A stretch of DNA of 45,137 bases, taken from Escherichia phage vB_Eco_Sem3. Both the position numbers and the translations under genes were made by a program. Shown here one piece after another: positions 2,807 to 41,583 of this stretch. Every line of letters begins with the position of its first letter. Positions within the stretch are counted from its first letter, which is position 1. Where the stretch lies: the sequence record PV775410.1. One strand, 5' to 3'. The notes beneath the pieces were generated by a model. It saw only the letters and a program-made list of their open reading frames with translations, did not search any database and was not told the origin of the DNA.

Positions 2807-4705
2807 TCACTTAGGCAGGGAAGCTAGTGCTTCCTGCATACGCTTGATAGTCCTACGCATCAACGCAGCCTCTAATATCAGTACTTCCTCGTAACGAATA
2901 CCGTAGCGGGAACCTGCTGGTGTAATCAGTTTACGAGAGCCATTGGCATCTTCCTCGTATACATCATCCCAACTGTCGAAGCACAAGAAGCCATAGCGGT
3001 GTGCATCTATGCCGTGACGTTCGAAAGCCTCCTTAGCTCGCTGAGCGATGATACCGAAGTGCCATCTAGCTGAGTCTGCACCCTTCTCCTCAACACGATC
3101 CAAATACTGAAACTGCACAAAGTCAACTTCAGACCAAGCATCCAGTAAGGCATCTGATATAGTAAGAGGTTCTGTTTTACACCGAGCATCTGAGGTGACA
3201 GTGAATGCTGCTTGAGTAAAACCGCCAGACCATGCCCGACTGGCGGAACCTAATGCATATGTACCAGTACTATCTGGGGTCATTGCATCAGCACCTAACT
3301 GCAAAAAGCCTGTGCTACTGGTAGAAAGACGCACGTTACCGTTGGTGAGGGACACTGTCCGAGAAGTACCATCAGAAGTAAATAGGCGAACTTGAGAAGA
3401 AGTGCCCCCACCTACAGCTAATGACACAGCACCATCTCCAAGCATTCTGTACTTATCAGCAGAAGTAAGAACACCTGAAGGGAGTGACATGGACTTAATC
3501 CGCCATTCGAACCTACCTGACATACTACCTATGTACTGCCCTAAGGCAGGTGCGTGCACTACGTTACTATTATTAGTGCCGTCAATAGTAGCTGCACCGT
3601 CAATAGTACTAGCAGAACTGAGAATGTCGTTTCTCCTGCCAGGGTGCTTTACCTCTACGAAGTTACGGGTAGAGCCGGATTCGAAAGTAATAACACCTGT
3701 AGCACTGTAGCTAGGAAATACAGACGCATAGTTGTTATTAGCTGTACCTATAAAGCGTGCAATTGTAGCAGTCTGCCCTTGTCCTAAAGAGTTAGTACCA
3801 TCACATCCTGACATAAGCACATTATTTATGACGTTATCAGATCCCTCTACGGTAACACCATGAGCCTGCCTAGCATCAGAAGTTGAGTAATCTACGAGCA
3901 CGTCTGATATTAAGTTCGTACTTCCTTTGCCTGCAACAACCGCTGCATACTTAGGGTTATTAGCCATCACCCCACTGATAAGGTTATTAGAAGGAGCTAT
4001 TGGCCCTTCAGTGCCGTTGTAAGTTACATGCTGGCAATCTGCCCCTATAACATTACTGACTATGTTGTAACTGGCTGTACCTTTCAACTCTACTGCTCCG
4101 AACTGAGGGTAGTTCTTAGCAATGACGTTATCTATGAGGGAGTTAACTGAGGAGTCAGCAAGTACGCATCCGGCTGCCTTATTAGTAGCATAGCCTGAAT
4201 AGCTACCTCGAATACCTTTAATCATAAGCCCCTCAGGTGGCGCATCATTAGGGTATGCGATTAAACTGAAACCAGTACCTTTAACGTTTGAGAAGTTAAC
4301 GTCACTTACAGTAACATCACTTCCACCAGCAAGAGATACCTGCTGTCCCTGAGTTGTATCAGTCGCCTTATTACTTTCTACCGTAATATTACTTAAGCGA
4401 CCTGCACGTAGATTGTTAAATACTAAGTAGTTACCTGTACTGGAACGGTGACTTAGCACGCCACTACCCCTACCGTCTAAGTTACAGTAATTACTATTAA
4501 TACCAGAGCTAGAGAATACACCATCTGAGACTGTGACAGCTTTCTGAGAGTTTAATGAAGCAGCTATAACCTCCGTATCATCAGTAGTGGCGTCACCTGC
4601 AGCACCAAACGGCTTTGATGTTAAAACTCTCGCATCAAGGTACTCATACAAAGATTGTCCTTTATGCAAGATTCCTTCAGTATTAGGTTTGGTTAATTTA
4701 GCCAT
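2807..4705 (-). CDS. Tailspike protein 1 with C-terminal intramolecular chaperone (peptidase S74-type autoprocessing) domain
   Basis: Start at MAKLTKP (RBS GGAG; track ORF extends 20 codons further upstream). Beta-helix-like body; C-terminus …SDARCKTEPLTISDALLDAWSEVDFVQFQYLDR…FGIIAQRAKEAFERHGID…GFLCFDSWDD resembles the autocleaving chaperone domain of endosialidase-type tailspikes. Confidence 0.8.
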   Translation of the reverse strand: MAKLTKPNTEGILHKGQSLYEYLDARVLTSKPFGAAGDATTDDTEVIAASLNSQKAVTVSDGVFSSSGINSNYCNLDGRGSGVLSHRSSTGNYLVFNNLRAGRLSNITVESNKATDTTQGQQVSLAGGSDVTVSDVNFSNVKGTGFSLIAYPNDAPPEGLMIKGIRGSYSGYATNKAAGCVLADSSVNSLIDNVIAKNYPQFGAVELKGTASYNIVSNVIGADCQHVTYNGTEGPIAPSNNLISGVMANNPKYAAVVAGKGSTNLISDVLVDYSTSDARQAHGVTVEGSDNVINNVLMSGCDGTNSLGQGQTATIARFIGTANNNYASVFPSYSATGVITFESGSTRNFVEVKHPGRRNDILSSASTIDGAATIDGTNNSNVVHAPALGQYIGSMSGRFEWRIKSMSLPSGVLTSADKYRMLGDGAVSLAVGGGTSSQVRLFTSDGTSRTVSLTNGNVRLSTSSTGFLQLGADAMTPDSTGTYALGSASRAWSGGFTQAAFTVTSDARCKTEPLTISDALLDAWSEVDFVQFQYLDRVEEKGADSARWHFGIIAQRAKEAFERHGIDAHRYGFLCFDSWDDVYEEDANGSRKLITPAGSRYGIRYEEVLILEAALMRRTIKRMQEALASLPK

Positions 4706-4784
4706 GCTATCTCCTATTACTTTCCAACCCTCCCTATGAAGATTGGCTAGTAATAGGCCGCTCAAAAGAACGGCGCTATCTTAT

Positions 4785-4807
4785 CTCTTCTATAGTGTCC
4801 AGTAAAT
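4785..4807 (-). promoter_or_regulatory. Phage RNAP promoter (late class, CCAGT variant) upstream of tailspike 1
   Basis: Minus strand reads ATTTACTGGACACTATAGAAGAG, close to the SP6 promoter ATTTAGGTGACACTATAGAAG. Confidence 0.7.
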
Positions 4808-4836
4808 CGTAAGACACTGATACATAAAGCTATGTA

Positions 4837-5034
4837 TTAATTATATCCGCGTTCCAGCGAAAGAATATACAAACCTAATTTTGTAGCGTCAGGCTTACTA
4901 AAGCAGACCTTATCGTCTACCTCGTAAACTTCCGTCAGCGTCGGCCTCAGAGGTTTCACCATTGCTTTCTCTGGTAACGCCTGCTGACACCCGGAAGTGA
5001 TCAGCGAACCAATCAGAAGGGTTGTCACTAACAT
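4837..5034 (-). CDS. Putative o-spanin-like outer-membrane lipoprotein (65 aa)
   Basis: Internal start MLVTTLLIGSLITSGC gives a signal peptide plus lipobox (TSG-C); mature part is Pro-containing with a second Cys; overlaps the adjacent membrane ORF in another frame, as Rz/Rz1 pairs do. Confidence 0.45.
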   Translation of the reverse strand: MLVTTLLIGSLITSGCQQALPEKAMVKPLRPTLTEVYEVDDKVCFSKPDATKLGLYILSLERGYN

Positions 5035-5131
5035 GATTCGCTTCACTTTGTGCCTCCTTCTCTTCTTGTTTCTTCTTAGCAGAGACAAGCAGGCCAATAA
5101 GACCTGCCAGAACTTCTAGAAACTTATTCAC
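4910..5131 (-). CDS. Membrane protein, i-spanin candidate (73 aa)
   Basis: Hydrophobic segment FLEVLAGLIGLLVSA followed by a charged tail; no ATG anywhere in the ORF (only a GTG start without an RBS), so it may be the frameshifted continuation of the 49-aa ORF at 5124-5273. Confidence 0.3.
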   Translation of the reverse strand: MNKFLEVLAGLIGLLVSAKKKQEEKEAQSEANHVSDNPSDWFADHFRVSAGVTRESNGETSEADADGSLRGRR

Positions 5132-5273
5132 AGGTGATCACTTGGCAGACCACATCTGTCACAGAGGATTCCGTGCCAGAGCCAAGGTCTACACCAAGAC
5201 CTACAGAAACAAGAGCAATTGCCAATGCAACTAGTGCACCTACAACCTTCTTAGATTTGAACAGCTTTTTCAT
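5124..5273 (-). CDS. Small membrane protein (49 aa, MKKLFKSKKVVGALVALAIALVSVGLGVDLGSG...)
   Basis: Hand-called; strong RBS AGGGAGG 5 nt before ATG; basic N-terminus then one hydrophobic helix; lies in the lysis cluster. Confidence 0.45.
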   Translation of the reverse strand: MKKLFKSKKVVGALVALAIALVSVGLGVDLGSGTESSVTDVVCQVITCE

Positions 5274-5381
5274 TGCACCTCCCTTTCCATTGTGCTAATA
5301 AAGTTGAGTAGTTCTGCCAATCTTCATAGTTACCTTCCTCTGAAGCCTTAGCAACCATGCGTTCACACCATGCAACACAAC

Positions 5382-5726
5382 CTACCATCGTGCACACCCG
5401 TCACGTACATCAATATGAGTAAAGGAGTTATACTTACCAATCCCATATTTGCCTTGGTACTTATCAGTAAGATACTTATGTACATCAGAAGGTAAGATGC
5501 CTCGTACCTTAATGTCAGCAGCCTTACCAGTAAGATGCATGGAGTTCTTAGCTCCTCCTACATTAGCATTGTGCTTAGCACAGCGGTGCCCCGAAGTGAT
5601 AACTACAGGAGAACCAAAGTGCTCACGCACATCTGTGACTACCTGTAGTAATTCAGCATCAACAGTGGATGTACCGCACCCACAACGGCAAGCGAACTCA
5701 CGGCGCTTGAAGTATTTGTTAAGCAT
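5382..5726 (-). CDS. Endolysin, L-alanyl-D-glutamate peptidase (peptidase M15 / VanY-like zinc peptidase)
   Basis: Start at MLNKYFKRREF (RBS GGTGGAG; TAATG overlap with the upstream gene stop). Motifs SGHRCAKHN…MHLTGKAADI…FTHIDVRD match the His/Asp/His zinc site of M15 peptidases. Confidence 0.8.
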   Translation of the reverse strand: MLNKYFKRREFACRCGCGTSTVDAELLQVVTDVREHFGSPVVITSGHRCAKHNANVGGAKNSMHLTGKAADIKVRGILPSDVHKYLTDKYQGKYGIGKYNSFTHIDVRDGCARW

Positions 5727-6019
5727 TATTCTCCACCTGCTGGAGTAACGGCTGACGATTCCATACCAGTTACATCCCAAGAGTCTGTTGGTTCACTACC
5801 ACGTGCAACAGCAATATGCATGGTTGTGTCATCTCTCTCAACAGCAACCATTGCACCTTTCTGCTTACCTGACAGGTGTTTGATGTTGATAGGGTGATCT
5901 TTACTCTTAAGGTCTGCTTCTTTAACAACAGGCATCGGGATTGCCGTTGCAATAGTTTGTACTGCTTTTACTCGAAAAGCCTGACCCGTAACAGAACCTG
6001 TAGTACCATATTTAGCCAT
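5726..6019 (-). CDS. Hypothetical protein, 97 aa (paralog of 6038-6316)
   Basis: Strong RBS AAGGAGG; shares PV(V/I)K.E..K…SGKQKGAMV…IA.A..G…W with the neighbouring ORF. Confidence 0.6.
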   Translation of the reverse strand: MAKYGTTGSVTGQAFRVKAVQTIATAIPMPVVKEADLKSKDHPINIKHLSGKQKGAMVAVERDDTTMHIAVARGSEPTDSWDVTGMESSAVTPAGGE

Positions 6020-6037: not shown

Positions 6038-6316
6038 TTAAACTGGGTTAACAGTTGGTTCCACTGTTACTAACTTCCACTCTGAATCTTCTTTGCCATC
6101 AACCGCGATAGCAATCTTCAATACACCACCTTCCACTTCAAGGCACACCATGGCCCCTTTCTGTTTACCTGATTTGGTGGCATCATTAATAGCATTGCTT
6201 TTCTTACTAGCTTCCTCTTTTTTGATTACCGGAAGCATTAGTTCTTCACTTACAGGTTGTACCTGCTTTCTCTTAGACTTACCTGTTAATGGTTGACTAC
6301 TATAATCATTAGCCAT
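6038..6316 (-). CDS. Hypothetical protein, 92 aa (paralog of 5726-6019)
   Basis: Start at MANDYSSQ (RBS AGGAGAGAGAC); the track ORF has a 22-codon upstream extension without an RBS. Confidence 0.55.
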   Translation of the reverse strand: MANDYSSQPLTGKSKRKQVQPVSEELMLPVIKKEEASKKSNAINDATKSGKQKGAMVCLEVEGGVLKIAIAVDGKEDSEWKLVTVEPTVNPV

Positions 6317-6453
6317 TGTCTCTCTCCTATTATGTAAATATAGTAAGGTAGTAAGGAATAGGGTGTACAGGAGTACACCCATACTAAGGCATACCTATAT
6401 AACCTAGGTTAACCTATATATTACCTATTATTTTCTCTTATTATCTGGGCCTT

Positions 6454-6476
6454 CCTTCTATAGTGTCCAGTAATTA
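6454..6476 (-). promoter_or_regulatory. Phage RNAP promoter (TAATTACTGG variant) overlapping the terminase large subunit stop codon
   Basis: Minus strand reads TAATTACTGGACACTATAGAAGG. Confidence 0.6.
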
Positions 6477-8372
6477 ATAAGTCCTTGAAATCCTTGCAGA
6501 AAGTGTATTTCTGCTTGCCGATTTATTTCGGTAGTTCTGCCCGTAAACTCGCTGCTGCATCGCTACGGAAGTGTTGGTCACTCTTCGCTCAGTACCGTAA
6601 TCCCCATATAGCATTGCCCTGCGTAGATGAGGTGTGTTCATAGCATGGATGTAATCTCGCATCTCCTGCGCTCTGAGGCGATTAATCCGTGTAACCTCGT
6701 CATAGTCTATCTGAGAAGTTAATTGCCGTATAGCGCCATACAGGGCGTCTAGGCGGTCATCGTGCCGGAGGCTGTTCTTCTCAATCGTTATGTTCGACAT
6801 TTGATTGAAAAGACTGTAGGACATGCGTAGTTCAAGCGGATAGTGCTGTACCGACTCAAAGTCTGACTTCACCATCTCTGCATTGAAGATAAGCCTATGT
6901 GCTGCCATGAGCGGCTCCAGCGTCTCAATGATACGCAATTCTTTCTGTCCGGTGGCGTAATCTTCTTCCAGAGTTACAGGCCACTCTCGTTCAAAGTACG
7001 GCTTAATTACCGCCTCAAACGCGCCATGACCAAAGTTCTTCTCAATGAATACCTCTTTAACACCCGCCTGCTTTGCGGCCTGCACAATGCGATTCAGGGA
7101 CGACTCTCGGTATCCGCCAGGTACACCAAAGCACTGATACACATAAATGAATGTGCCGTGCAGGAATACGATGGCTACACCCGTCTCATCTCCGTTCTTA
7201 CCACCACCTGCAGGGTCAATATACATAATCTTGCGGGAGACAGCACCCCATTCGTATGGGCGAGCTACAGGTCTGTACATGAAATCCGTAGGCTTGTTAC
7301 CATACTTAGGTGCATCACCAATTATGTTTATGGAATCATTACTCCACGTAGGCATCACAGGGACTTCCTCTGTACCAAACGAGGTGAAGATTAGATTGTT
7401 CAGGCGTAATGGGTATCTGTCAGCATCCATCATGCGAGTGTTAAGCATGAACTGAAGCTGGAACTTAGCAGCACCCTGAGAGATTTCCTTCTCAATCAGG
7501 ACTTCATCATCATACATTTCAGGGGCACAAGGTGCACCACTATTACCATCCAACCCGTACCCTGAGCGAAGTGCGGGGTTGTCCTTCATATCTTGAACAA
7601 TCATAGGTGCAAGGAAGTCGCCATAACATTGCTCTTGCTCTACTGAAGGGTAACGCGCAGTCCAGATACGAACAGAGTAACCACGAGCAGGTAGGTTGTT
7701 GTAGATAGAGTTTACGTTCTGAGGTGTACCAAGGTAAATGATATCTCCAAACTGGTTGATAGATTCAAACTCCTTAGTCAGTTCCTCAAGCAAGGCACGG
7801 CCCGCTGCCGTACGAGCATTCTGCATCGACTCTACGTCATCCGCTAGAATAATATCAGCACGAGCACCCTGCATACCTGCTTCGATTGAGTAACAGGATA
7901 CAGAAGGAGACTTATCACTACCACGTAGGGTGTAATGAATCTCAAACGCCTTAACGGATGCACGGTCCCCAGCGTAGATATCCGGCAGCATAAACTCAAG
8001 AAAGTCTAAGCCACGGAAGATTTTAACTACCCAACCTGCGATTTCCTCTGCTCGCTTGGCGTTTTGGGACACAACCATGATACGCTTATGCGGTTCATGA
8101 ATAATACGGAAGACCGTATAGATTGCTGATAGTGTTGTCTTAGCGATACCACGAGGCGCTTCGATGAGGCGGTACTTGTGTCCGTAAAATAGGAACTTCA
8201 AGATATCAGCCTGCATACGAATCAGATGAGGGTTGCCTGCAATTAAGTTATGAATAACTGTATCTGCAAAGAGAAGCAAACCTTCCGCTGTGTAAGGAAA
8301 GGTCTGCTGTAACTCCTGTAGCATCTCCCATCTGGCAAGAGCCTCCGCTTGTGATTCTCTTGCCTTAGCCAT
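6474..8372 (-). CDS. terL: Terminase large subunit
   Basis: About 632 aa; ATPase plus nuclease architecture typical of T7 gp19-like terminases; RBS AAGGAGGA; located after the small terminase gene. Confidence 0.85.
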   Translation of the reverse strand: MAKARESQAEALARWEMLQELQQTFPYTAEGLLLFADTVIHNLIAGNPHLIRMQADILKFLFYGHKYRLIEAPRGIAKTTLSAIYTVFRIIHEPHKRIMVVSQNAKRAEEIAGWVVKIFRGLDFLEFMLPDIYAGDRASVKAFEIHYTLRGSDKSPSVSCYSIEAGMQGARADIILADDVESMQNARTAAGRALLEELTKEFESINQFGDIIYLGTPQNVNSIYNNLPARGYSVRIWTARYPSVEQEQCYGDFLAPMIVQDMKDNPALRSGYGLDGNSGAPCAPEMYDDEVLIEKEISQGAAKFQLQFMLNTRMMDADRYPLRLNNLIFTSFGTEEVPVMPTWSNDSINIIGDAPKYGNKPTDFMYRPVARPYEWGAVSRKIMYIDPAGGGKNGDETGVAIVFLHGTFIYVYQCFGVPGGYRESSLNRIVQAAKQAGVKEVFIEKNFGHGAFEAVIKPYFEREWPVTLEEDYATGQKELRIIETLEPLMAAHRLIFNAEMVKSDFESVQHYPLELRMSYSLFNQMSNITIEKNSLRHDDRLDALYGAIRQLTSQIDYDEVTRINRLRAQEMRDYIHAMNTPHLRRAMLYGDYGTERRVTNTSVAMQQRVYGQNYRNKSASRNTLSARISRTY

Positions 8373-8671
8373 CAATCCTCCTTAGTGAATTGAATTATCT
8401 TACCACTGGATGCCTCTCGGATAGCCTTGAGGCGCTTAGATAACTTGGACTCTTCCTGCTGTGCAGCAGGTGTGGCGGTAATGCCGTTATCAAGAACCCA
8501 CTTACACATCGCACCAATATCCTTACCAGACACTAAATGTAATGCTGCATCAGGGTCTTCTTCTATAGTGTCCAGTATTGCCTGTGCTTTCTTATTGAAG
8601 ATTTTGGTAATAGCACCATGCAGAATGCCAACCTCATCCTCTGTAGCTGCATGTTTATTGTGTACGCTCAC
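8372..8671 (-). CDS. terS: Terminase small subunit (99 aa, GTG start)
   Basis: RBS GGAGGGAG 6 nt before GTG, immediately after the holin stop; position equivalent to T7 gene 18. Assigned by position and size, not by motif. Confidence 0.5.
   Translation of the reverse strand: MSVHNKHAATEDEVGILHGAITKIFNKKAQAILDTIEEDPDAALHLVSGKDIGAMCKWVLDNGITATPAAQQEESKLSKRLKAIREASSGKIIQFTKED
8557..8580 (-). promoter_or_regulatory. Promoter-like sequence inside the small terminase gene
   Basis: Minus strand reads CAATACTGGACACTATAGAAGAAG: 17-nt core conserved, upstream AT-rich part divergent. Confidence 0.4.
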
Positions 8672-8849
8672 GCTTCTCCCTCCAAATCTTGAACTTATTA
8701 TAAAACCAGTCCCCAATTTGCAACACGGTATAAATGAATGTTGCTATTAACACCCAATTATCCCAACTGATACCGAGGAAGTACCCACCTGATACGAGTG
8801 CAGGTGGCGCAAGCTTCACACCACTATCTACCAGTTCGGAGTTAATCAT
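8655..8849 (-). CDS. Holin (T7 gp17.5-like)
   Basis: 64 aa; …WDNWVLIATFIYTVLQIGDWFYNKFKIWREKRE resembles the T7 holin segment NEWFYVAAIAYTVVQIGAKVVDKMIDWKK; RBS AAGGAGG; directly precedes terS as in T7. Confidence 0.7.
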   Translation of the reverse strand: MINSELVDSGVKLAPPALVSGGYFLGISWDNWVLIATFIYTVLQIGDWFYNKFKIWREKRERTQ

Positions 8850-8858
8850 CCTACCTCC

Positions 8859-9821
8859 TTATGCTGTGATAATCTTAGCAGTCATCCGGCATTCTGGCAC
8901 TCCCTCTGAGAAAGTAACAATGTCACCGTCTACCTGATAAGCAAGTTTAGGTTGTAATAATCCATCAAGGTAGACCTCAATGTACTTAAATGCAGAGCCA
9001 ATCTGTACTACTTGTTGGCCTTCTGCTAAGTCAAAGTTCAACTCTAACTGAATATTAGGTTCAGATGTAGCCACACGACTACCAATCAGCACATACACCT
9101 CTGTACCCGCCACAAGCGGCTCTGCGAAAGTGATAGTGTTGTTGCTTATAGAGTATGCGCCTACAATTTGGTGCTGCAACACCCCATTAAGGAAAACTAG
9201 TGCATCTTGAAATTCATAAGGTGGTTTTACGGAAATCTCACCACCTTGGGCTATCGTGTACCAAGGAACAGTTCTGTGCGCAATACCAGAAGTCATACCA
9301 GCCTTAAGGCCAGCAATCTCAATGTCCTGTTTGGCGTTCCAATCTGTATGCTTCTTGTCGATGGCATCAAGCTGCCCTTTATTTACTGCATCTCCCGGAT
9401 TTGTGCCATCAGCCAAATCAGTAATCTTATTGCCGCCCCAGCTTACATCCTGTTTAATGAAGTATCCTTCTGGATAAAACCCGTCAAGTAACTCCTGTGT
9501 AATCTCCAGTATATGAATGAAAGAACCATTTAAAGACTTCATATCCAAGGTAACACCACGGTCAAACTCAGCGTATGGATACTCCTTTTGTACTTCCCTT
9601 CTAATACGGAACTTCAAACCTGCAACTGGTGCTACATCAAAAGTAATCTGGTGCGTGCCAGTTAGTTGCCAGCCAGATGTAACCTCAATCCAAGTGTTAC
9701 CTTGAAGAGACTCCACTATCACATCTGAGGCACGAAGATAACCTTTATCCCTACCAGCAAAGCTAAAGGGATAGGTTACTTGCGTACCGTTGGCTATATG
9801 TTCTGTGAAAGTATAACTCAT
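8859..9821 (-). CDS. Tail fiber / tailspike adaptor protein (T7 gp17 N-terminal domain-like)
   Basis: 320 aa; N-terminus MSYTFTEHIANGTQVTYPFSFAGRDKGYLRASDV…; too short to be a receptor-binding fibre, consistent with the adaptor that carries tailspikes in SP6/K1-5-type phages. Confidence 0.7.
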   Translation of the reverse strand: MSYTFTEHIANGTQVTYPFSFAGRDKGYLRASDVIVESLQGNTWIEVTSGWQLTGTHQITFDVAPVAGLKFRIRREVQKEYPYAEFDRGVTLDMKSLNGSFIHILEITQELLDGFYPEGYFIKQDVSWGGNKITDLADGTNPGDAVNKGQLDAIDKKHTDWNAKQDIEIAGLKAGMTSGIAHRTVPWYTIAQGGEISVKPPYEFQDALVFLNGVLQHQIVGAYSISNNTITFAEPLVAGTEVYVLIGSRVATSEPNIQLELNFDLAEGQQVVQIGSAFKYIEVYLDGLLQPKLAYQVDGDIVTFSEGVPECRMTAKIITA

Positions 9822-12121
9822 CAATCCTCCAGTTCATCTAAGCCATAACGCAATGCGTTCTGGATTCCTATTACATTAGCTAGAGGCACTAAGCGTAAAG
9901 CCCTACGTGCCACATCTACACCTTCTGTATCACCCTCTGCGTATTTAGTTATAGAATCTGCTAAACGATATGCATCTTGACCAACACCTACTAGTGGTAT
10001 TTGGTCTATCAAACCCTTAGTCTGAAAGCCAGCCTCATAACGGGATTGTACTAACTCAGAAGGTAGAACACCTAGGCCACCTAAGAAATCTCCACCTAGA
10101 CTAAATACAGCAGTTGTACTCATCATACCCATTGCACCAAAGGCCAACCCTTTAGGCGATAACTTCTCTTCCAAATATTCATCTTGGTCTTCTCGACCAA
10201 TAGAGTTCACATAGGCTTTTGCCGCATACACTATTGAACCCAAAGCAAAACCATAAGCTGTCTTCTTAGCAAGACCAATTTTATCGTGGCGAATCCCTCG
10301 ACCAAATTGCTTCTCACCAGATACAAGAGAGAATGACTTAAGCTGTGCAAATGTCTTACCTAGTGCTTTGTTCATCCAGATACCTTCATCACCAATGAAA
10401 TTACGTTGGATAATTAGACCTGACTTACGACGAATAGCATTAGCTAAAGTTTCACCCATGGCATAAGGCATTGTATCAAAGCCAAGCAAGCCAGAACCTT
10501 TAGAGTTAGCATCATAGTGCTTCTGTAGGTTAGTCATGAACTCCTGAGTAAGACCAAGTTCCTCCAGTTTCTTCTGAGGAATAATCTTCTTGCCTTCAAG
10601 GTGGTCAATGAAAGACAAAGCTATTTGCCTATTGGTCATTCGCTCCAGAGAACCCTGTGCCATGCGGAAGAGGGATAGGTTTGTCTGAGCACGTCGTATA
10701 GAGTTCATGGACTGGTCAAAATGGGCCATCATACCTCGCACTGTGGTTACATCACCAAACTCATCGGGACGCGCACCCTTAGTTGTCAGCCAGTTGTCTT
10801 CACCAATGTAACCTACCATTCGCTCAACCTCAGCTAAATTCTTATCTCGAAAGAAGCCATCGCCATTACGCAACGCCTTAGAGGTGAAGCGGAATTGCTT
10901 ACCTAAAGCCATAGTGGTGGCAGCAATACCAAACTCACCCATGAAGTTAGCAAGTTCACCTAGCTGTGCGAAGCCCATCTGACCTAAGCGAAGTACACCT
11001 GTAATGTCACGCCCACGACGCAGCATTTTAGTAGACAAATCTTGTGGGTTTGAATCGATAGATTTACCCATAATCAAGCGAAGCCCTTCTCGCATCTGAC
11101 GGATTTCTTCATCAATAGCCAGACCAGCTGCTTCATCTTTCTCTTTCAATTTAAGTCGCTTCTTTAACTCTTCAATCTTCTCTTGTGCCTTCTTGTAATC
11201 AGGCTCTGATTGACGGATCTTAGCCGACTCCGCTTCAAATTGTGCGTGTGCTTTTGTATCTTTAGCTGCATTTCGTGCATTTCGCTCTACAAGATCAATT
11301 GCATTAAGTGCAGCCTGATAGGTAGAGAAACCTTGACGAGCCAAGGCAGCACCACCTGCCGCTTCCTTCATGTAGTTATCTGTTAACTCTTCCACGTTAG
11401 TGTTCATAAAGTCACGCATACGAATGCCATTGTACTCTTGAGTAACATCTAAGCCTAAACTCATCTTAGCTCGGTTAGAGATATTATCTCTGGTTTCTTT
11501 ATTATCCAGAGCTTCTACCATCTTTTCAATCTCTTCATCACTAAAGCCTGCTTTGCGCATTAGTGCTTCATATTCTGCTTTGGTTTGACCAGACATAGCC
11601 TTTTCAAAGCTAAGCTGTCCGGTCAGGGTGGCATCAGCAACGCGGTTTACTTGTGCTCGTGCAATATCATCAGCCACTTCCTTTGGAACCTTACGAGAAC
11701 CATTCTGGTATGCACGAGAGAATAACTCAATGATGTCCTCTTTATCGTGCATACTGAATTGACGACGAGCCTTCATACTATCAAAAATATCAGGCATGTA
11801 CTTATCATCTGCTTTAACCTTTTCAAACCCAGATTCACCAGAGCGTTGACGTAATGCTAATGCTTCACGATACATAGCTTGCTGCCCCTCTGCTGCCATA
11901 CGGATAGACTTAGGCGTAGACTCATCCATACCGATGCGTACAGCTTCCCATACCTTCTCATTATATTGCTGCACATAGTGAGAGTTAGTATGACCTGCAA
12001 CCGGGTTGATATTATTCTCTTTGAGCCATAAATCGAACCCATCATTGAAACGATTCATATCAGCAGATTTCAGACGGTTCAAGTTAGTATTCTGCATGAG
12101 ACTAGCAGATGCTTTCTGCAT
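9821..12121 (-). CDS. Internal virion (ejectosome/core) protein, 766 aa
   Basis: Large protein in the T7 gp15/gp16 position; assigned by synteny and size. Confidence 0.6.
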   Translation of the reverse strand: MQKASASLMQNTNLNRLKSADMNRFNDGFDLWLKENNINPVAGHTNSHYVQQYNEKVWEAVRIGMDESTPKSIRMAAEGQQAMYREALALRQRSGESGFEKVKADDKYMPDIFDSMKARRQFSMHDKEDIIELFSRAYQNGSRKVPKEVADDIARAQVNRVADATLTGQLSFEKAMSGQTKAEYEALMRKAGFSDEEIEKMVEALDNKETRDNISNRAKMSLGLDVTQEYNGIRMRDFMNTNVEELTDNYMKEAAGGAALARQGFSTYQAALNAIDLVERNARNAAKDTKAHAQFEAESAKIRQSEPDYKKAQEKIEELKKRLKLKEKDEAAGLAIDEEIRQMREGLRLIMGKSIDSNPQDLSTKMLRRGRDITGVLRLGQMGFAQLGELANFMGEFGIAATTMALGKQFRFTSKALRNGDGFFRDKNLAEVERMVGYIGEDNWLTTKGARPDEFGDVTTVRGMMAHFDQSMNSIRRAQTNLSLFRMAQGSLERMTNRQIALSFIDHLEGKKIIPQKKLEELGLTQEFMTNLQKHYDANSKGSGLLGFDTMPYAMGETLANAIRRKSGLIIQRNFIGDEGIWMNKALGKTFAQLKSFSLVSGEKQFGRGIRHDKIGLAKKTAYGFALGSIVYAAKAYVNSIGREDQDEYLEEKLSPKGLAFGAMGMMSTTAVFSLGGDFLGGLGVLPSELVQSRYEAGFQTKGLIDQIPLVGVGQDAYRLADSITKYAEGDTEGVDVARRALRLVPLANVIGIQNALRYGLDELED

Positions 12122-21307: not shown

Positions 21308-21331
21308 TCCCTTCTATAGTGTCCAGTAAAT
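21308..21331 (-). promoter_or_regulatory. Phage RNAP promoter upstream of the major capsid gene
   Basis: Minus strand reads ATTTACTGGACACTATAGAAGGGAGA. Confidence 0.75.
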
Positions 21332-29772: not shown

Positions 29773-29822
29773 ATTAAATTCTCCTTTGTTAGTTGTGGCA
29801 TTATCGCCGATTAAAATTCTTC

Positions 29823-29844
29823 TCTTCTATAGTGTCCAGTAAAT
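29823..29844 (-). promoter_or_regulatory. Phage RNAP promoter
   Basis: Minus strand reads ATTTACTGGACACTATAGAAGA. Confidence 0.7.
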
Positions 29845-30911: not shown

Positions 30912-31063
30912 TTATTTAGTCTCCTATTGTCAGTTAGCTTTGTACTGAGCACAAGCATGTACTCACTAGAAAGCCCGATACTATATCGGGTTGTGCAAGA
31001 TGCACAATGGTTCAACATCAACATCAACACTTTACAATCATAGGCCGAACTAAGCCGACCTAT

Positions 31064-31086
31064 TGTTCTATAGTGTCCAGTAATTA
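31064..31086 (-). promoter_or_regulatory. Phage RNAP promoter (TAATTACTGG variant) overlapping a stop codon
   Basis: Minus strand reads TAATTACTGGACACTATAGAACA. Confidence 0.55.
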
Positions 31087-31525: not shown

Positions 31526-31547
31526 TCCTTCTATAGTGTCCAGTAAA
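31526..31547 (-). promoter_or_regulatory. Phage RNAP promoter
   Basis: Minus strand reads ATTTACTGGACACTATAGAAGGAA. Confidence 0.7.
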
Positions 31548-38841: not shown

Positions 38842-38864
38842 CTATCCTATAGTGTCCGGTAAAT
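38842..38864 (-). promoter_or_regulatory. Phage RNAP promoter, CCGGT class (first promoter after the RNAP gene)
   Basis: Minus strand reads ATTTACCGGACACTATAGGATAG. Confidence 0.65.
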
Positions 38865-38955: not shown

Positions 38956-41583
38956 TTATGCGAAGCAATAGTCAGATACTAAGATTTCGTTAAGGTCAAA
39001 TTCTCCTTGCTCTGGCACTTGGATTCCGGTGTCTACTAACCAGCGTTCTTCATGCTCATCTAACAGGCTTTGCAGGGCATTACGACCTTGATACATCTTC
39101 ACCATTTCTGCCCTTAAGCTATCCCGCAGGTCTGCTGTACGGCCTGCATGAGTACCAAAGGAATCATGGATGACTGCAATAGAGGTAATACCTTTATCCA
39201 CTAAAGCACACACCGTTAGAATCAGGTGGCTAGCATCATGACCATGCACGAAGTTAGGAGCAGCCGCACCCATCATGGCTGTTTCATCCACTACATCAGT
39301 CTCAATCTGTAGACTCATCTTGATTTCACCCATCAAGCAAGTGGATACGCGTAGCATGTCGGTAGCCATTATCTTTTGTTGCAAGATGAAACCAGTAGGT
39401 AAGGTGTACTCTAGCCCTTCGTTTCTTTTAGCTGCGAAGCGTGCAAGCTGGCGAATCATTTTCATCGCCACTATAGGAGCTTTAACAACCTCAGAGATAG
39501 AAGGCCAGATTAAAGCTGTCATATAGTTATAAGCTGCGCTAGGTGTCAGGCTGTCCTTACGGTCATTATCAAAAGGGTGTACAGGATTGGCGGTACGCCC
39601 TTCCGCAATAGCTCGTTGGGCCTCTTTTTCTTCCAAATCAACGATATAATCAATCACTGATTCACGGCAGGTTAGACGTGTGCTGCCATAAGGTAGTGTC
39701 ATTACGGGCTTTTTGGTCAATCCGCGAGTGATTCCTATCATATCCCACGCATTAGCCATGCTACGCAGTTCTGCACCTGTAAGTGTGACGCTCCCAGATG
39801 TGAAAGTCACTGCATCGTCTGCATTCATGTAGGCGTAATTCTTCTGGATAACAACCTGCGCAACCGCGCCATAAATATCTTGAGGGAAGTCAGAAGGCTT
39901 AAGGTTTACTGCTTTCGCACCTACTTCATCGCGTAACATCGCGCTATAGTGCTGGATACCAGAGCAACTACCGTCTTGATGGACGGGTAGATGCGTCATG
40001 AATTGGTCTTGCGTGCCTTCATCCAGTGCATCCAGATAACGCGCATATTCAAAGCACCATGCAAGGAAGCCGTAAGGGGAATCAGCATTTACCCATTGAG
40101 TGAAGGTCAGCGGATCGGCTGCAATGTCGCGGCACATGTCTTGAAATTCGCCATCCAGCACGTTAGAGGTGCGCACGTCAAAAGTTTTCTTATCCCAACC
40201 CCAGTTATTCGCCCCGTTCACCAAAAACCACTTAAGCGCCTCAGCGCTATCAAGACGCTGCCCTTCGGTAAAACGGAGCAATGCCTTGCCTAAGTCGTTT
40301 GATTGCGGCGAGAGCGTGCTAGATTGCGCATAAACGCGTGAACGGCTATCCAGTGCATATACAAAATAAATCGCGTCAAACTGGCTGTATTTACGGGCCT
40401 GTCCTACCATGCGGACGGTCGCCGCCGACTTGCTGCCGCGCTTAGTCTCAGCGGTATACAGCTTAGTACATTCACCCTTCCAGTTGATGAAGGCCTGCCA
40501 TTGCTCCGGTGTTAGCATCTCTTTCAATTCACGGCCTCGCAGGTGCTGGAACTCTAACGGCACTGGATTAGCTGGCTTGTTCTCACGGTCGATGAGTGGT
40601 TTAAAGGAAGGCACACCATAACCAAGGTCGAGACGGATAACGTCCTCTACTACCTGCAAAACCTCTTTATTAACCTGCCACTTAGTCGCCTGCAAAGCGT
40701 TAACAGCCTTGTAAACCGCTGGCATTTGCTTTTTGGTCAGCTTGCGGACGTGCTCGCGGTTTCCTTTAACCAGACGAATACGACTCGCCACCTTCTCGGT
40801 ATGGAAGCCACCATTAAACGGAGAAACCCACGGACGAGGAGGAATAACGCAAGGCGCATAGGCTGGACTCAGCTGAGCTACGTGCTCTTTAAATGCAGTT
40901 ATCCATTCACCCACATGTTCGCTAGTCTGTAAGTAGTAAACGCCATGCTTGCCACCATTAGTGCGCAAGGTGCGAAGAAAGACAGGCTGACCATTGAAGA
41001 ATACACTATTTTCCAGTATTTCTAGCAAGGTCATACCTATTTGTAGCAAGGTATCTTTAGGCCACGCCTCCCAGCGAGAGAAATCAGCGTCACGGTCAGC
41101 CACTGACTTCTCAGCCACGACCGCTACGTTGTGCGCATGGCGATATGATTTAGTCTTACTTGCCTTAAGTGACTTCTTAACTTTCTCAAAGTATTTGGCG
41201 GCGTGACCTTCCAGCTTGCTAAAACGTACTTGGTCCTCAATGCGGTCAGCTACATTCATGGCTATAGCCTGCAAGGTTACATCCGTGTTCAGCATATCCA
41301 TAACGATTTTCATCGTGATATATGCTGCCACTTCGTTTTCTACGCAGTTAATGAAAGCTAATGCACGCGGTGCACGGCCTCTTTTACCTTCATACTCTTC
41401 CTTGTATGCCTGAATACCTTCAGCCATTGGCGCGATTAACTCGGACAATAAGCGGCGATTCCAGGCCGTGTCTGATTCATTACCGGATGCAATCTGGCGT
41501 TGTTGGTCCGCTTCAAAGCGACGGATACCGCCGTTAAACATTTCTTCTTCAAGTTGAAGTTGAATAGCGTGTAGGTCTTGCAT
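38956..41583 (-). CDS. Single-subunit DNA-dependent RNA polymerase, SP6-type
   Basis: 875 aa; N-terminus [31 protein letters not shown]… and catalytic motifs (…[15 protein letters not shown]…, …VHDSFGTHA…) match SP6 RNAP as I recall it; RBS AGGAG. Confidence 0.95.

What the first reader, a model, noticed from the sequence alone, without database searches (positions are those of the whole stretch)
4837..5273. Non-canonical lysis-accessory region: 49-aa membrane ORF, an ATG-less 73-aa membrane ORF and an overlapping lipoprotein ORF in three frames
The 49-aa ORF has a strong RBS. The next ORF (4910-5131) is in another frame, has no ATG at all, and begins 7 nt before the 49-aa stop. Fused by a frameshift they would give an approximately 120-aa protein with two hydrophobic segments and a charged tail. 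The lipobox ORF (4837-5034) overlaps rather than being fully embedded. This could be a frameshifted i-spanin/o-spanin pair or a novel arrangement.
Basis: seen in the sequence. Interest (0 to 1): 0.5.

Follow-up and report, generated by a model that had tools for sequence, protein, structure and literature searches.

The report
SP6-type phage spanin module, not frameshifted
The three overlapping small ORFs are separate, conserved, translationally coupled lysis genes of a K1-5/SP6-like phage rather than a broken gene, but which of the two upstream proteins partners the outer-membrane lipoprotein is still unsettled.

Summary
The minus strand carries a 49-aa ORF (5273..5124), a 73-aa GTG-initiated ORF (5131..4910) and a lipobox ORF. 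The lipobox ORF most likely starts at GTG 5046 (69 aa), not ATG 5034.

The window is a Vectrevirus (K1-5/SP6-like). All three ORFs keep the same order and relative frames in every relative examined. Substitution patterns show that the 73-aa ORF is a real gene: pN/pS is 0.37 in its own frame against 1.3 and 3.0 in the other two.

Its GTG start is formed by the last Cys codon of the 49-aa gene (TGT-GAA-TAA). More distant relatives use ATG in ATGA or TAATG overlaps. This is translational coupling, not a frameshift or a sequencing error.

The lipoprotein is the o-spanin. The phage also has a T7-family holin elsewhere (8849..8655), so the database label "holin" for the 49-aa protein is doubtful.

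The 73-aa family is always paired with this o-spanin family and sits in the i-spanin position. Its N-terminal helix, however, is not a canonical membrane anchor. Public annotations contradict each other.

Best reading: an overlapped spanin pair with an atypical i-spanin equivalent, preceded by a truncated holin-like protein. No experiment has tested this.

The parts
5124..5273 (-). p49: 49-aa bitopic membrane protein, predicted N-in/C-out. It has a K-rich N-terminus, a 19-residue TMD and a 21-residue tail ending in the conserved C-x4-C motif. It looks like a truncated relative of 2-TMD holin-like proteins and has been annotated elsewhere as 'holin' or as 'i-spanin'.
   Evidence: phrog_4712, E 3e-27. 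pN/pS 0.28 in its own frame against 1.4 and 1.8 in the others. TMD metrics. Invariant C43 and C48 across 12 lineages. hhalign against the 2-TMD X family: probability 85%, E 6e-6. Called i-spanin in Kongari 2018 ('Too small?'), LL11, Premi and SP6 AY288927.2. Called holin in RefSeq K1-5.
4910..5131 (-). p73: 73-aa GTG-initiated protein of phrog_9219. Predicted layout: N-terminal hydrophobic/amphipathic helix, K-rich charged helix, conserved [DN]P..WF..HF motif (4988..5026), then a variable disordered tail. It occupies the i-spanin position relative to the overlapped o-spanin.
   Evidence: phrog_9219, E 4.6e-32. In the 77 nt that no other gene covers, pN/pS is 0.37 in its own frame against 1.26 and 3.01, and minimum changes per codon position are 23/12/46. 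In the overlap with the o-spanin signal peptide, pN/pS is 0.27 against 1.04 in the o-spanin frame. Intact in all relatives. 47 + 44 database homologues, 49-95 aa after setting aside two longer artefacts (P0049, P0050). AF2 predicts helices at 3-29 and 38-45 with the rest disordered; mean pLDDT 60.
4837..5046 (-). o-spanin: 69-aa outer-membrane lipoprotein precursor. Likely start GTG 5046, signal peptide and lipobox LITSG|C with Cys20 at 4989..4987, Gln at +2, mature protein 50 aa. It overlaps p73 by 137 nt.
   Evidence: phrog_8971, E 1.2e-38. pN/pS 0.24 in its own frame for the last 24 codons. Start-codon argument. K1-5 gp45 and the Kongari 2018 o-spanin entry.
5124..5131 (-). Coupling junction GTGAATAA. 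The p73 start codon is built from the last Cys codon of p49 (TGT) plus the G of GAA, and lies 5 nt before the p49 stop TAA. There is no Shine-Dalgarno sequence upstream.
   Evidence: The same 8-nt overlap with GTG is present in all 26 distinct SP6-like sequences. Other lineages use ATGA, TAATG or GTGA overlaps. No stable RNA structure at the junction.
5053..5058 (-). AGGAGG Shine-Dalgarno sequence of the o-spanin, embedded in p73 codons E-K-E-A, 6 nt upstream of GTG 5046.
   Evidence: Read directly from the sequence. Conserved in the alignment of relatives. Listed as the o-spanin RBS in the Kongari 2018 supplement.
5278..5283 (-). GGGAGG Shine-Dalgarno sequence of p49, 4 nt upstream of ATG 5273.
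   Evidence: Read directly from the sequence. Same RBS listed for K1-5.
Its ATG overlaps the endolysin stop (ATGGTAG) and its 3' end overlaps the p49 start by 23 nt. It is the first gene of the conserved four-gene module that follows the endolysin.
   Evidence: phrog_1312, E 1.3e-17. pN/pS 0.19 in its own frame against 1.15 and 1.12. Homologues are present from Vectrevirus to Aeromonas, Edwardsiella and Klebsiella phages. Relatives carry a precomputed PF26839 (DUF8272) hit. Premature stops in LL11 and L007.
5382..5726 (-). Endolysin, Peptidase_M15_3, 114 aa, with no signal or SAR sequence detected.
   Evidence: PF08291, E 4.8e-33. phrog_894. Same extent as K1-5 gp43.
8655..8849 (-). T7-family holin, 64 aa, lying between the tail-fibre adaptor and the small terminase as in T7. 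It already fills the holin role.
   Evidence: PF10746 Phage_holin_2_2, E 1.5e-27, 95.5 bits against a cut-off of 25.4. phrog_920 holin. The SP6 gp39 homologue is called 'putative holin' in PMC4837284.
6453..6473 (-). Phage RNA-polymerase promoter motif directly downstream of the terminase large subunit gene. It is the likely promoter of the cassette that runs from 6382 to 4837.
   Evidence: TTACTGGACACTATAGAAGGA is one of 9 minus-strand matches to the motif, against 0 expected by chance. The assignment as an SP6/K1-5-type promoter rests on my own knowledge of the consensus.
4785..4805 (-). Phage promoter motif between the o-spanin stop and the tailspike gene. It marks the 3' boundary of the module.
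   Evidence: Exact match to the motif. A 'promoter' feature is annotated at the equivalent place in record Y10025.2 (hit H141).

Best explanation
The region is the distal lysis module of an SP6/K1-5-like phage. It consists of separate small genes that are translated in a coupled way. It is not a frameshifted gene.

Expression:
- Shown: there is a phage promoter motif at 6473..6453. That it drives one late transcript covering the M15 endolysin, p45, p49, p73 and the o-spanin is inferred.
- Shown: p49 has a strong ribosome-binding site.
- Shown: p73 has no ribosome-binding site, and its GTG lies inside the last codons of p49. Inferred: it is translated by termination-reinitiation from ribosomes finishing p49.
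- Shown: AGGAGG lies 6 nt upstream of GTG 5046, inside the p73 reading frame. Inferred: the o-spanin initiates there.
- Inferred from the lipobox and from the absence of Asp at +2: the o-spanin is lipidated at Cys20 and sorted to the outer membrane.

Lysis sequence, inferred from established holin-endolysin-spanin biology:
- The T7-family holin at 8849..8655 permeabilises the inner membrane.
- The cytoplasmic M15 endolysin then degrades the cell wall.
- The o-spanin with its partner then destroys the outer membrane.

Functional assignment to which I commit (inferred):
- p73 is the functional partner of the o-spanin, that is, the i-spanin equivalent of an overlapped two-component spanin. It is an atypical one: its N-terminal helix is weakly hydrophobic and has the reverse charge bias.
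- p49 is a truncated, single-TMD relative of 2-TMD holin-like proteins. It may act as an accessory holin or antiholin, or as a membrane partner of p73.
For: Separate genes:
- All three ORFs are intact, syntenic and in the same relative frames in 26 distinct SP6-like sequences. The GTG and the 8-nt overlap are invariant.
- Erwinia VL73 and Klebsiella 6939 and Roth32 phages use ATG in ATGA or TAATG overlaps.

p73 is a real gene:
- pN/pS is 0.37 in its own frame against 1.26 and 3.01 in the 77 nt covered by no other gene.
- In the stretch shared with the o-spanin signal peptide, pN/pS is 0.27 against 1.04 in the o-spanin frame.
- SP6 RefSeq annotates the homologue as gp48.

p73 pairs with the o-spanin:
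- In 9 of 9 metagenomic contexts of distant family members (L040-L048), and in every cultured lineage examined, the p73-family gene is overlapped at its 3' half by a lipoprotein gene. That lipoprotein has the same conserved C-terminal LG.YI..LER.Y motif.
- The upstream membrane protein varies: p49-type, 2-TMD type, or an unrelated TM protein in L044 and L046.
- The only partner motif that is conserved together with the lipoprotein is therefore [DN]P..WF..HF of p73.
- Kongari 2018 scored the UAB_Phi78 homologue as an overlapped i-spanin.

The holin role is filled elsewhere:
- PF10746, E 1.5e-27, at 8849..8655.

p49 is related to 2-TMD holin-like proteins:
- hhalign probability 85%, E 6e-6.
- Those proteins hit holin PHROGs at E 1.6e-9 to 1e-5.
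Against: The p73 helix is not a canonical i-spanin anchor:
- Over 47 family members, mean Eisenberg <H> is 0.36 and mean muH is 0.37. TMD controls give 0.75-0.82 and 0.04-0.11.
- 44 of 47 members have a charged residue inside the helix.
- K+R averages 0.6 before the helix and 2.6 in the 8 residues after it. By the positive-inside rule this predicts N-out/C-in or a peripheral helix. Either would leave the conserved domain in the cytoplasm, away from the o-spanin.

Geometry:
- If periplasmic, the p73 domain (about 55 aa) plus the mature o-spanin (50 aa) would be short for bridging the periplasm.

p49 is the better membrane anchor:
- It is the only protein here with a robust N-in/C-out anchor and conserved periplasmic cysteines.
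- The Center for Phage Technology (LL11, Premi), the current SP6 GenBank record and Kongari 2018 call it the i-spanin.

Other limits:
- No homology to T7 or lambda Rz/Rz1 was detected.
- I found no experiment on any of these proteins.
- Because the two genes share DNA, their co-occurrence is partly automatic.
Confidence: 0.5

Rival explanations
1. p49 is the i-spanin of a 'separated' two-component spanin with the 69-aa o-spanin, as currently annotated by the Center for Phage Technology. In this reading p73 is an accessory protein of unknown role. It might, for example, be a cytoplasmic-face partner or regulator of p49, made in fixed ratio to it through coupling.
For: p49 has the required topology signals: five Lys at the N-terminus, a 19-residue TMD and a C-out tail. 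It also has two invariant periplasmic cysteines, as lambda Rz does. It is listed as i-spanin in the Kongari 2018 supplement, LL11, Premi and SP6 AY288927.2. The charge bias of p73 argues that its domain is cytoplasmic.
Against: Only about 21 periplasmic residues are available, and the authors themselves noted 'Too small?' and 'Too short'. In other lineages that keep the same o-spanin family and the same C-terminal motif, the protein in this position is different: a 2-TMD hairpin with only a roughly 12-residue periplasmic loop, or an unrelated membrane protein. The lipoprotein would then lack a conserved partner. p49 also resembles holin-like proteins.
Confidence: 0.25
2. p49 and p73 form an antiparallel two-subunit holin-like or antiholin complex in the inner membrane (p49 N-in/C-out, p73 N-out/C-in). 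It would be functionally equivalent to a split 2-TMD holin plus a cytoplasmic regulatory domain. The lipoprotein would act without a dedicated i-spanin, or with an unidentified one.
For: The predicted topologies are complementary. p49 aligns with the first TMD of 2-TMD holin-like proteins. p73 has a short N-terminal hydrophobic helix followed by a highly charged domain, a common holin feature (from my own knowledge). Tight translational coupling suggests a complex of fixed stoichiometry.
Against: A T7-family holin is already present. The p73 family is never seen without the overlapped lipoprotein, whereas its upstream partner is interchangeable. In many members the p73 helix is too charged to span a membrane, for example MYKQVLLKLLIESLIDTV and MRAFVELLNRILALLESAL. 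No o-spanin is known to work without an inner-membrane partner.
Confidence: 0.15
3. One reading: the 49-aa and 73-aa ORFs are one gene split by a sequencing error, a mutation or a programmed +1 frameshift, giving a roughly 120-aa i-spanin.
For: The ORFs abut with an 8-nt overlap, and a fusion would give a TMD plus a charged domain. One database protein (P0081, 95 aa) looks like such a fusion.
Against: The junction is identical in 26 distinct sequences. The relative frame is +1 here but -1 in VL73, 6939 and Roth32, where ATG is used. The p73 frame is closed 1-2 codons upstream of the GTG in most of them. There is no slippery motif and no stimulatory RNA structure. No roughly 120-aa homologue exists. 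P0081 is a singleton chimera of two proteins that are separate on 99 and 10 other contigs.
Confidence: 0.02
4. The 73-aa ORF is not expressed. It would be a chance open frame kept open by constraints on the overlapping o-spanin gene and its ribosome-binding site.
For: It has no ATG and no Shine-Dalgarno sequence. Many annotated genomes omit it, including K1-5, LL11 and Premi. Its C-terminal tail varies in length from 61 to 73 aa.
Against: Codon-periodic purifying selection acts in its frame in the 77 nt that no other gene covers, and it dominates even over the o-spanin signal-peptide frame. The protein family is conserved down to about 35-45% identity, with canonical ATG starts in other lineages. 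The start position is invariant.
Confidence: 0.03

Closest known systems
K1-5/K1E/SP6 'separated' spanin entries and the UAB_Phi78 'overlapped' spanin entry of the SpaninDB (Kongari et al. 2018, PMC6139136)
   Same: These are the same genes. p49 here is 98% identical to K1-5 gp44. The o-spanin corresponds to K1-5 gp45. p73 is the homologue of the 69-aa UAB_Phi78 'i-spanin' and of SP6 gp48.
   Different: The published table assigns the i-spanin role to p49 in K1-5, K1E and SP6, but to the p73 homologue in UAB_Phi78. All four phages carry all three genes, so the two classifications cannot both be right. Neither has been tested experimentally.
Overlapped two-component spanins such as P2 LysB/LysC. 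The embedded lambda Rz/Rz1 and T7 gp18.5/18.7 pairs are related arrangements.
   Same: An outer-membrane lipoprotein gene starts in another frame inside the 3' part of the upstream gene and extends beyond it. The pair lies at the end of a lysis cassette. The mature lipoprotein is small, with a Pro-rich linker and one periplasmic Cys.
   Different: The upstream protein (p73) has no credible N-in/C-out TMD and no long coiled-coil periplasmic domain. There is no sequence similarity to T7 gp18.5 or gp18.7 and no Pfam Rz hit. An extra coupled membrane protein (p49) precedes it.
T7 gp17.5 holin family (Pfam PF10746)
   Same: The window encodes a clear member at 8849..8655, in the same position as in T7, between the tail-fibre gene and the small terminase gene.
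   Different: This gene lies outside the flagged region. Its presence is what makes the 'holin' label on p49 doubtful.
Small 2-TMD (class II-like) phage holin families phrog_34682 and phrog_297
   Same: p49 aligns with their N-terminal K/S-K-x-V/I-W/V motif, first TMD and G-x-D/E turn (hhalign probability 85%; PHROG cross-hits).
   Different: p49 lacks the second TMD and the basic C-terminal tail, and ends instead in a periplasmic C-x4-C tail. The function of these PHROG families rests on annotation, not on experiments that I could find.
Translational coupling by overlapping stop and start codons (ATGA, TAATG and similar), general in phage operons
   Same: The p49 stop and the p73 start overlap in every lineage, and p73 has no Shine-Dalgarno sequence of its own.
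   Different: Here the overlap is 8 nt and the start is GTG, because the start codon is carved out of the conserved terminal Cys codon of p49.

Membership tests
o-spanin (outer-membrane subunit of a two-component spanin), tested on the 69-aa ORF | N-terminal lipoprotein signal with a lipobox Cys | tested here: met
   MKRIMLVTTLLIGSLITSG|C has a basic n-region, a hydrophobic core and Cys20. A Cys preceded by a hydrophobic signal peptide is present in all homologues examined. Kongari 2018 accepted ITSG and TTSG as the lipobox. No dedicated lipoprotein predictor was available.
o-spanin, tested on the 69-aa ORF | Sorting to the outer membrane (no Asp at +2) and a small periplasmic mature domain | tested here: met
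   The residue after Cys20 is Gln in the window and G, S, A, V or L in relatives, never Asp. The mature length is 50 aa.
o-spanin, tested on the 69-aa ORF | Gene embedded in, overlapping or adjacent to an i-spanin gene within a lysis cassette | tested here: met
   It overlaps p73 by 137 nt, lies 77 nt after p49 and lies downstream of the M15 endolysin.
o-spanin, tested on the 69-aa ORF | Required for outer-membrane disruption (spherical-cell phenotype of null mutants in the presence of Mg2+) | not testable with these tools
   This needs phage genetics.
i-spanin, tested on p73 | N-terminal TMD with N-in/C-out (type II) topology | tested here: not met
   For the window protein, the longest uncharged run is 12 residues, the Kyte-Doolittle 19-residue mean is 1.25 and Eisenberg <H> is 0.42. 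Across the family, mean <H> is 0.36 and mean muH is 0.37, 44 of 47 members have charges in the helix, and K+R is 0.6 before and 2.6 after the helix. These are predictions only. The SpaninDB accepted the UAB_Phi78 homologue as an i-spanin, which under its stated criteria implies a predicted TMD.
i-spanin, tested on p73 | Charged, largely helical periplasmic domain that binds the o-spanin | tested here: inconclusive
   The region after the N-terminal hydrophobic segment (residues 19-73) is highly charged. AF2 predicts one continuous helix over residues 3-29 that runs into it, a short helix at 38-45, and disorder elsewhere (mean pLDDT 60). Neither its location nor its binding could be tested, because no multimer prediction tool was available.
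i-spanin, tested on p73 | Gene contains, or immediately precedes, the start of the o-spanin gene | tested here: met
   The o-spanin start at 5046 lies 86 nt into p73. The same holds in every lineage examined.
i-spanin, tested on p49 | N-terminal TMD with N-in/C-out topology | tested here: met
   Five Lys in residues 2-9, a 19-residue uncharged segment with a Kyte-Doolittle mean of 2.64, and an acidic C-terminal tail. Prediction only.
i-spanin, tested on p49 | Periplasmic domain long enough, together with the o-spanin, to bridge the periplasm | tested here: not met
   There are about 21 periplasmic residues, giving 71 in total with the o-spanin. The SpaninDB authors flagged this as 'Too small?' and 'Too short'.
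holin, tested on p49 | At least one TMD, a charged cytoplasmic C-terminus, and lethal hole formation that releases the endolysin | tested here: inconclusive
   It has one TMD, but its C-terminus is predicted periplasmic and acidic. Homology to 2-TMD holin-like families is remote. A Pfam-verified T7-type holin exists elsewhere in the genome. Function cannot be tested here.
programmed ribosomal frameshift, or a frameshift error, joining p49 and p73 | A slippery site, a stimulatory element, an open overlap window and a conserved shift direction | tested here: not met
   There is no slippery motif in TC ACC TGT GAA TAA. The junction RNA fold has z = -0.46. The p73 frame is closed 1-2 codons upstream of its start in most relatives. 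The relative frame differs between lineages. No fused homologue exists.
T7 holin family (PF10746), tested on the ORF at 8849..8655 | Pfam gathering threshold and T7-like gene position | tested here: met
   95.5 bits against a cut-off of 25.4. It lies between the tail-fibre adaptor and the small terminase genes.

The most novel reading that the evidence does not exclude
The p73 family may be a new kind of spanin subunit. It would be a small protein without an export signal, cytoplasmic or attached to the inner face of the membrane by an amphipathic helix. It would meet its outer-membrane lipoprotein partner only after the inner membrane has been breached by the holin or by the coupled holin-like p49/X protein. 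Outer-membrane disruption would then be gated by holin firing rather than by the cell-wall meshwork.

Equivalently, p49, p73 and the lipoprotein could form a three-component envelope-spanning system.

The module is widespread. It is found in all SP6-like Autographiviridae examined and in diverse uncultured phages, including marine ones.
Probability: 0.2. Interest if true: 0.75.

Novelty: new variant of a known kind. Interest (0 to 1): 0.42.

Why it matters
SP6, K1-5 and K1E-type phages are workhorses of phage therapy and capsule-depolymerase research. Even so, their last lysis step is annotated in three mutually incompatible ways in public records. p49 is called holin or i-spanin. p73 is omitted, called hypothetical, called i-spanin, or mislabelled o-spanin.

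Showing that p73 is a real, selected and translationally coupled gene, always paired with this o-spanin family, corrects the annotation. It also defines a simple genetic test: nonsense mutations in the 77-nt stretch of p73 (5123..5047) that no other gene covers.

If the o-spanin partner really lacks a canonical membrane anchor, the current definition of two-component spanins would need extending. That definition is also what spanin-finding pipelines search for. Some of the roughly 13% of Gram-negative phage genomes (91 of 677) in which the 2018 survey found no spanin might then be explained.

Tried and rejected
1. Homology of p73 and the o-spanin to T7 gp18.5 and gp18.7. hhalign gave probability 0.2% and BLASTP found no alignment. 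Rejected.

2. Pfam and NCBIfam scans of p45, p49, p73 and the o-spanin. Nothing was significant.

3. AF2 model of p73. Two helices plus a disordered tail, mean pLDDT 60. This is too poor and too simple for a fold search, so none was run.

4. P0081, a 95-aa apparent natural fusion of p49-like and p73-like parts. I first took it as support for a split i-spanin. I rejected it after finding that its halves are 100% identical to separate proteins on 99 and 10 other contigs.

5. Frameshift signals. There is no slippery site and no stable RNA structure.

6. Vibrio VP4/ICP3 'tiny i-spanin' group as possible members of the same module. A tblastn search with the Aeromonas p73 homologue listed no Vibrio phage in the named organism counts or among the 40 rows shown. 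Not pursued further.

7. Literature search for experiments on SP6, K1-5 or K1E gp44, gp45 or gp48. None was found. The KBNP1315 study concerns a different holin and a SAR endolysin.

8. Covariation between the p73 motif and the o-spanin C-terminus. Judged underpowered with about 20 pairs, and not run.
Full report
**Identity of the window.** The stretch 4700-5800 is 100% identical to Escherichia phages vB_Eco_Sem1 and Sem2 and to Klebsiella phage vB_Ka_Sem4. It is 92-99% identical to many Vectrevirus genomes, with K1-5 at 92.7%. The genes lie on the minus strand in the order known from K1-5 and SP6:
- terminase large subunit, 8375..6474;
- two paralogous small ORFs;
- an M15 endolysin, 5726..5382;
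- the flagged small ORFs;
- the tailspike.

**The observation.** All three ORFs exist as described.
- p49 (5273..5124) has ATG, with GGGAGG 4 nt upstream.
- p73 (5131..4910) is in the +1 frame, starts with GTG and has no in-frame ATG. Its frame is closed by TGA three codons upstream of the GTG. It overlaps p49 by 8 nt (cTGTGAATAA).
- The lipobox ORF ends at 4837.

The lipobox ORF's start needs correcting, from ATG 5034 to GTG 5046:
- AGGAGG lies 6 nt upstream of GTG 5046.
- SP6 and BP12B have ATG at exactly that position.
- ATG 5034 is GTG, ACG or TGG in other relatives.
- K1-5 gp45 and the published spanin table use the 69-aa form.

**Are the three ORFs real and separate?** I collected 38 annotated or viral-contig loci and 9 metagenomic contexts.
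- In 26 distinct SP6-like sequences (Vectrevirus, Zindervirus, and Klebsiella and Proteus Molineuxvirinae) the ORFs are intact, syntenic and in the same relative frames. The p73 GTG always sits in the last codons of p49.
- I pooled Nei-Gojobori estimates over the 77 nt between the p49 stop and the o-spanin start, which most annotations treat as intergenic. pN/pS is 0.37 in the p73 frame against 1.26 and 3.01 in the other two. Minimum changes per codon position are 23, 12 and 46.
- p49 as a control gives 0.28.
- In the stretch shared with the o-spanin signal peptide, the p73 frame (0.27) is more constrained than the o-spanin frame (1.04).
- The o-spanin's own 3' end gives 0.24.
- In Erwinia phage VL73 and Klebsiella phages 6939 and Roth32 the p73 homologue starts with ATG, in ATGA or TAATG overlaps with the upstream stop. 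There it lies in the -1 rather than the +1 frame.
- The junction has no slippery motif and no stable RNA structure (z = -0.46).
- No roughly 120-aa homologue exists among 47 clusters in the 5.8-billion-protein set or 44 representatives in the 1.8-billion set.

The GTG start is the family norm. It is explained by the overlap: the start codon is carved out of the invariant terminal Cys codon of p49 (TGT plus G). The arrangement is classical termination-reinitiation coupling. It is not a frameshift, a pseudogene or a sequencing error.

**A false lead.** One 95-aa protein (P0081, from a TARA marine contig) looked like a natural fusion of a p49-like TMD and a p73-like domain. Its two halves are 100% identical to separate 64-aa and 69-aa proteins found on 99 and 10 contigs. 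It is therefore a deletion or an assembly chimera and carries no weight.

**What the proteins are.**

*The 69-aa product.* This is an o-spanin.
- It matches phrog_8971 at E 1e-38.
- It has a lipobox with Cys20 and no Asp at +2.
- The mature protein is 50 aa, with a Pro-rich linker, one Cys and a strongly conserved C-terminal LG.YI..LER.Y.

*The holin.* The phage has a Pfam-verified T7-family holin at 8849..8655, in the T7 position (PF10746, E 1.5e-27). It corresponds to the 'putative holin' gp39 of SP6 (PMC4837284). The holin role is therefore filled, and the PHROG/RefSeq 'holin' label on p49 rests only on remote similarity.

*p49.* This is a robust bitopic protein.
- It has five N-terminal Lys, a 19-residue TMD and an acidic tail of about 21 residues with invariant C-x4-C.
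- It aligns with the first half of 2-TMD holin-like proteins that occupy the same position in distant phages (hhalign probability 85%, E 6e-6).

*p73.* This belongs to a family (phrog_9219) of proteins mostly 49-95 aa long, with a constant layout:
- an N-terminal helix of about 18-20 residues;
- a basic and acidic helix (K..EQ..AQ.EA);
- the motif [DN]P..WF..HF, 36-43 residues from the N-terminus;
- a variable disordered tail.

**Which protein partners the o-spanin?** Public sources disagree.
- Kongari et al. 2018 list p49 as a 'separated' i-spanin in K1-5, K1E and SP6, with the notes 'Too small?' and 'Too short'. They list the p73 homologue as an 'overlapped' i-spanin in UAB_Phi78. All four phages carry all three genes.
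- LL11 and Premi call p49 the i-spanin.
- RefSeq calls p49 a holin.
- SP6 RefSeq annotates p73 as gp48 but omits the lipoprotein.
- The updated SP6 record AY288927.2 places the 'o-spanin' label on a truncated ORF in the p73 frame (39607..39804). The lipoprotein is actually at 39671..39880.

*In favour of p73.*
- In every lineage and in 9 of 9 metagenomic contexts, the p73-family gene is overlapped by this lipoprotein family.
- The upstream membrane protein, by contrast, is interchangeable: p49-type, 2-TMD type, or an unrelated TM protein in L044 and L046.
- The p73 motif is therefore the only candidate partner that is conserved together with the lipoprotein's conserved C-terminus.
- The gene order (endolysin, holin-like gene, gene X, overlapped lipoprotein gene) is that of an ordinary cassette.

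*Against p73.*
- Its N-terminal helix is not a canonical anchor. Mean Eisenberg <H> is 0.36 and mean muH is 0.37, against 0.75-0.82 and 0.04-0.11 for TMD controls.
- Charged residues lie inside the helix in 44 of 47 members.
- K+R averages 0.6 before the helix and 2.6 just after it.
- This predicts N-out/C-in or a peripheral helix, which would keep the conserved domain in the cytoplasm.

*p49 as the alternative.* p49 has the right topology, but it exposes only about 21 residues. In other lineages it is replaced by hairpins with a loop of about 12 residues, or by unrelated membrane proteins.

*Geometry.* Neither candidate is helped by geometry. With either one, the complex would be short for an intact periplasm.

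**Verdict.**
- With high confidence (about 0.9), the region consists of separate, conserved, coupled genes and includes a genuine o-spanin.
- With moderate confidence (about 0.45-0.5), p73 is the o-spanin's functional partner, an atypical i-spanin equivalent, and p49 is a truncated holin-family accessory protein.
- The main rival is p49 as i-spanin with p73 as accessory (about 0.25).
- The next rival is a p49/p73 holin-like pair (about 0.15).
- The most novel reading not excluded is a partner without an export signal that reaches the lipoprotein only after the membrane is breached, or a three-component system (about 0.2).
- Against a holin-gated release: several lineages that keep the module have transglycosylase-type endolysins with hydrophobic N-termini. 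If those are exported, as shown for a related phage, they would not need large holin holes.

**Novelty.** The DNA itself is already in GenBank, and the ORFs are partly annotated. The overlapped architecture, the GTG starts and the coupling are ordinary. Three things are new or unresolved:
- the evidence that the commonly unannotated p73 is a selected gene;
- its invariable pairing with this o-spanin family across a wide, partly uncultured range of phages;
- its failure of the defining topology test for i-spanins.

I therefore rate it a new variant of a known kind, of moderate interest.

Noticed in passing
window 5251-5388 (minus strand): A fourth small gene, p45 (45 aa, MVGCVAWCERMVAKASEEGNYEDWQNYSTLLAQWKGRCNEKAVQI), lies between the endolysin and p49, in what K1-5 annotates as a 108-nt intergenic gap. 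It matches phrog_1312 (E 1.3e-17). pN/pS is 0.19 in its own frame against about 1.1 in the others. Homologues with a C-x-x-W-C motif occur from Vectrevirus to Aeromonas and Edwardsiella phages, and relatives carry a PF26839 (DUF8272) hit. It has premature stops in LL11 (L001) and in L007, so it may be dispensable. Its function is unknown.
   Followed up: partly
window 8655-8849 (minus strand): A T7-family holin (PF10746, E 1.5e-27) lies between the tail-fibre adaptor (9824..8859) and the small terminase (8716..8372). The lysis genes of this phage are therefore split between two loci.
   Followed up: yes
window minus strand: 4785-4805, 6453-6473, 8558-8578, 21309-21329, 29822-29842, 31063-31083, 31526-31546, 36322-36342, 38842-38862: There are nine copies of the phage-promoter-like motif TTACTGGACACTATAGAAGAG (up to 3 mismatches; 0 expected by chance). 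One lies just upstream of the lysis cassette and one just after the o-spanin stop.
   Followed up: partly
window 5726-6019 and 6038-6382 (minus strand): Two paralogous small ORFs (97 and 114 aa, sharing ...SGKQKGAMV...) both match phrog_2725. Many records name them 'acetyl-CoA acetyltransferase'. They have no Pfam hit and are far too short for that enzyme, so the name looks like a propagated mis-annotation.
   Followed up: no
L031 (SP6 AY288927.2) 1137-1334, record coordinates 39607..39804: The updated SP6 GenBank record labels as 'o-spanin' an ORF that is in the p73 frame, a truncated gp48 with no Cys. The real lipoprotein ORF is at 39671..39880 in another frame. This is probably an annotation slip.
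   Followed up: partly
L040 329-616 (TARA marine contig, protein P0081): A 95-aa chimeric ORF joins the first 44 residues of a 2-TMD holin-like protein to residue 20 onward of a p73-family protein. It is a singleton. The two parts are separate genes on 99 and 10 other contigs, so it is a deletion variant or an assembly artefact.
   Followed up: yes
window 4821-4836 (minus strand): A short perfect inverted repeat, TACATA-gctt-TATGTA, follows the o-spanin stop codon immediately and precedes the promoter motif. It might be a small terminator or a processing hairpin.
   Followed up: no
L044 and L046 (metagenomic contigs): In these distant phages the p73-family gene is coupled, through GTGA or ATGA overlaps, to unrelated upstream membrane proteins of 62 and 112 aa instead of a p49/X-type protein. 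The overlapped lipoprotein is retained.
   Followed up: partly
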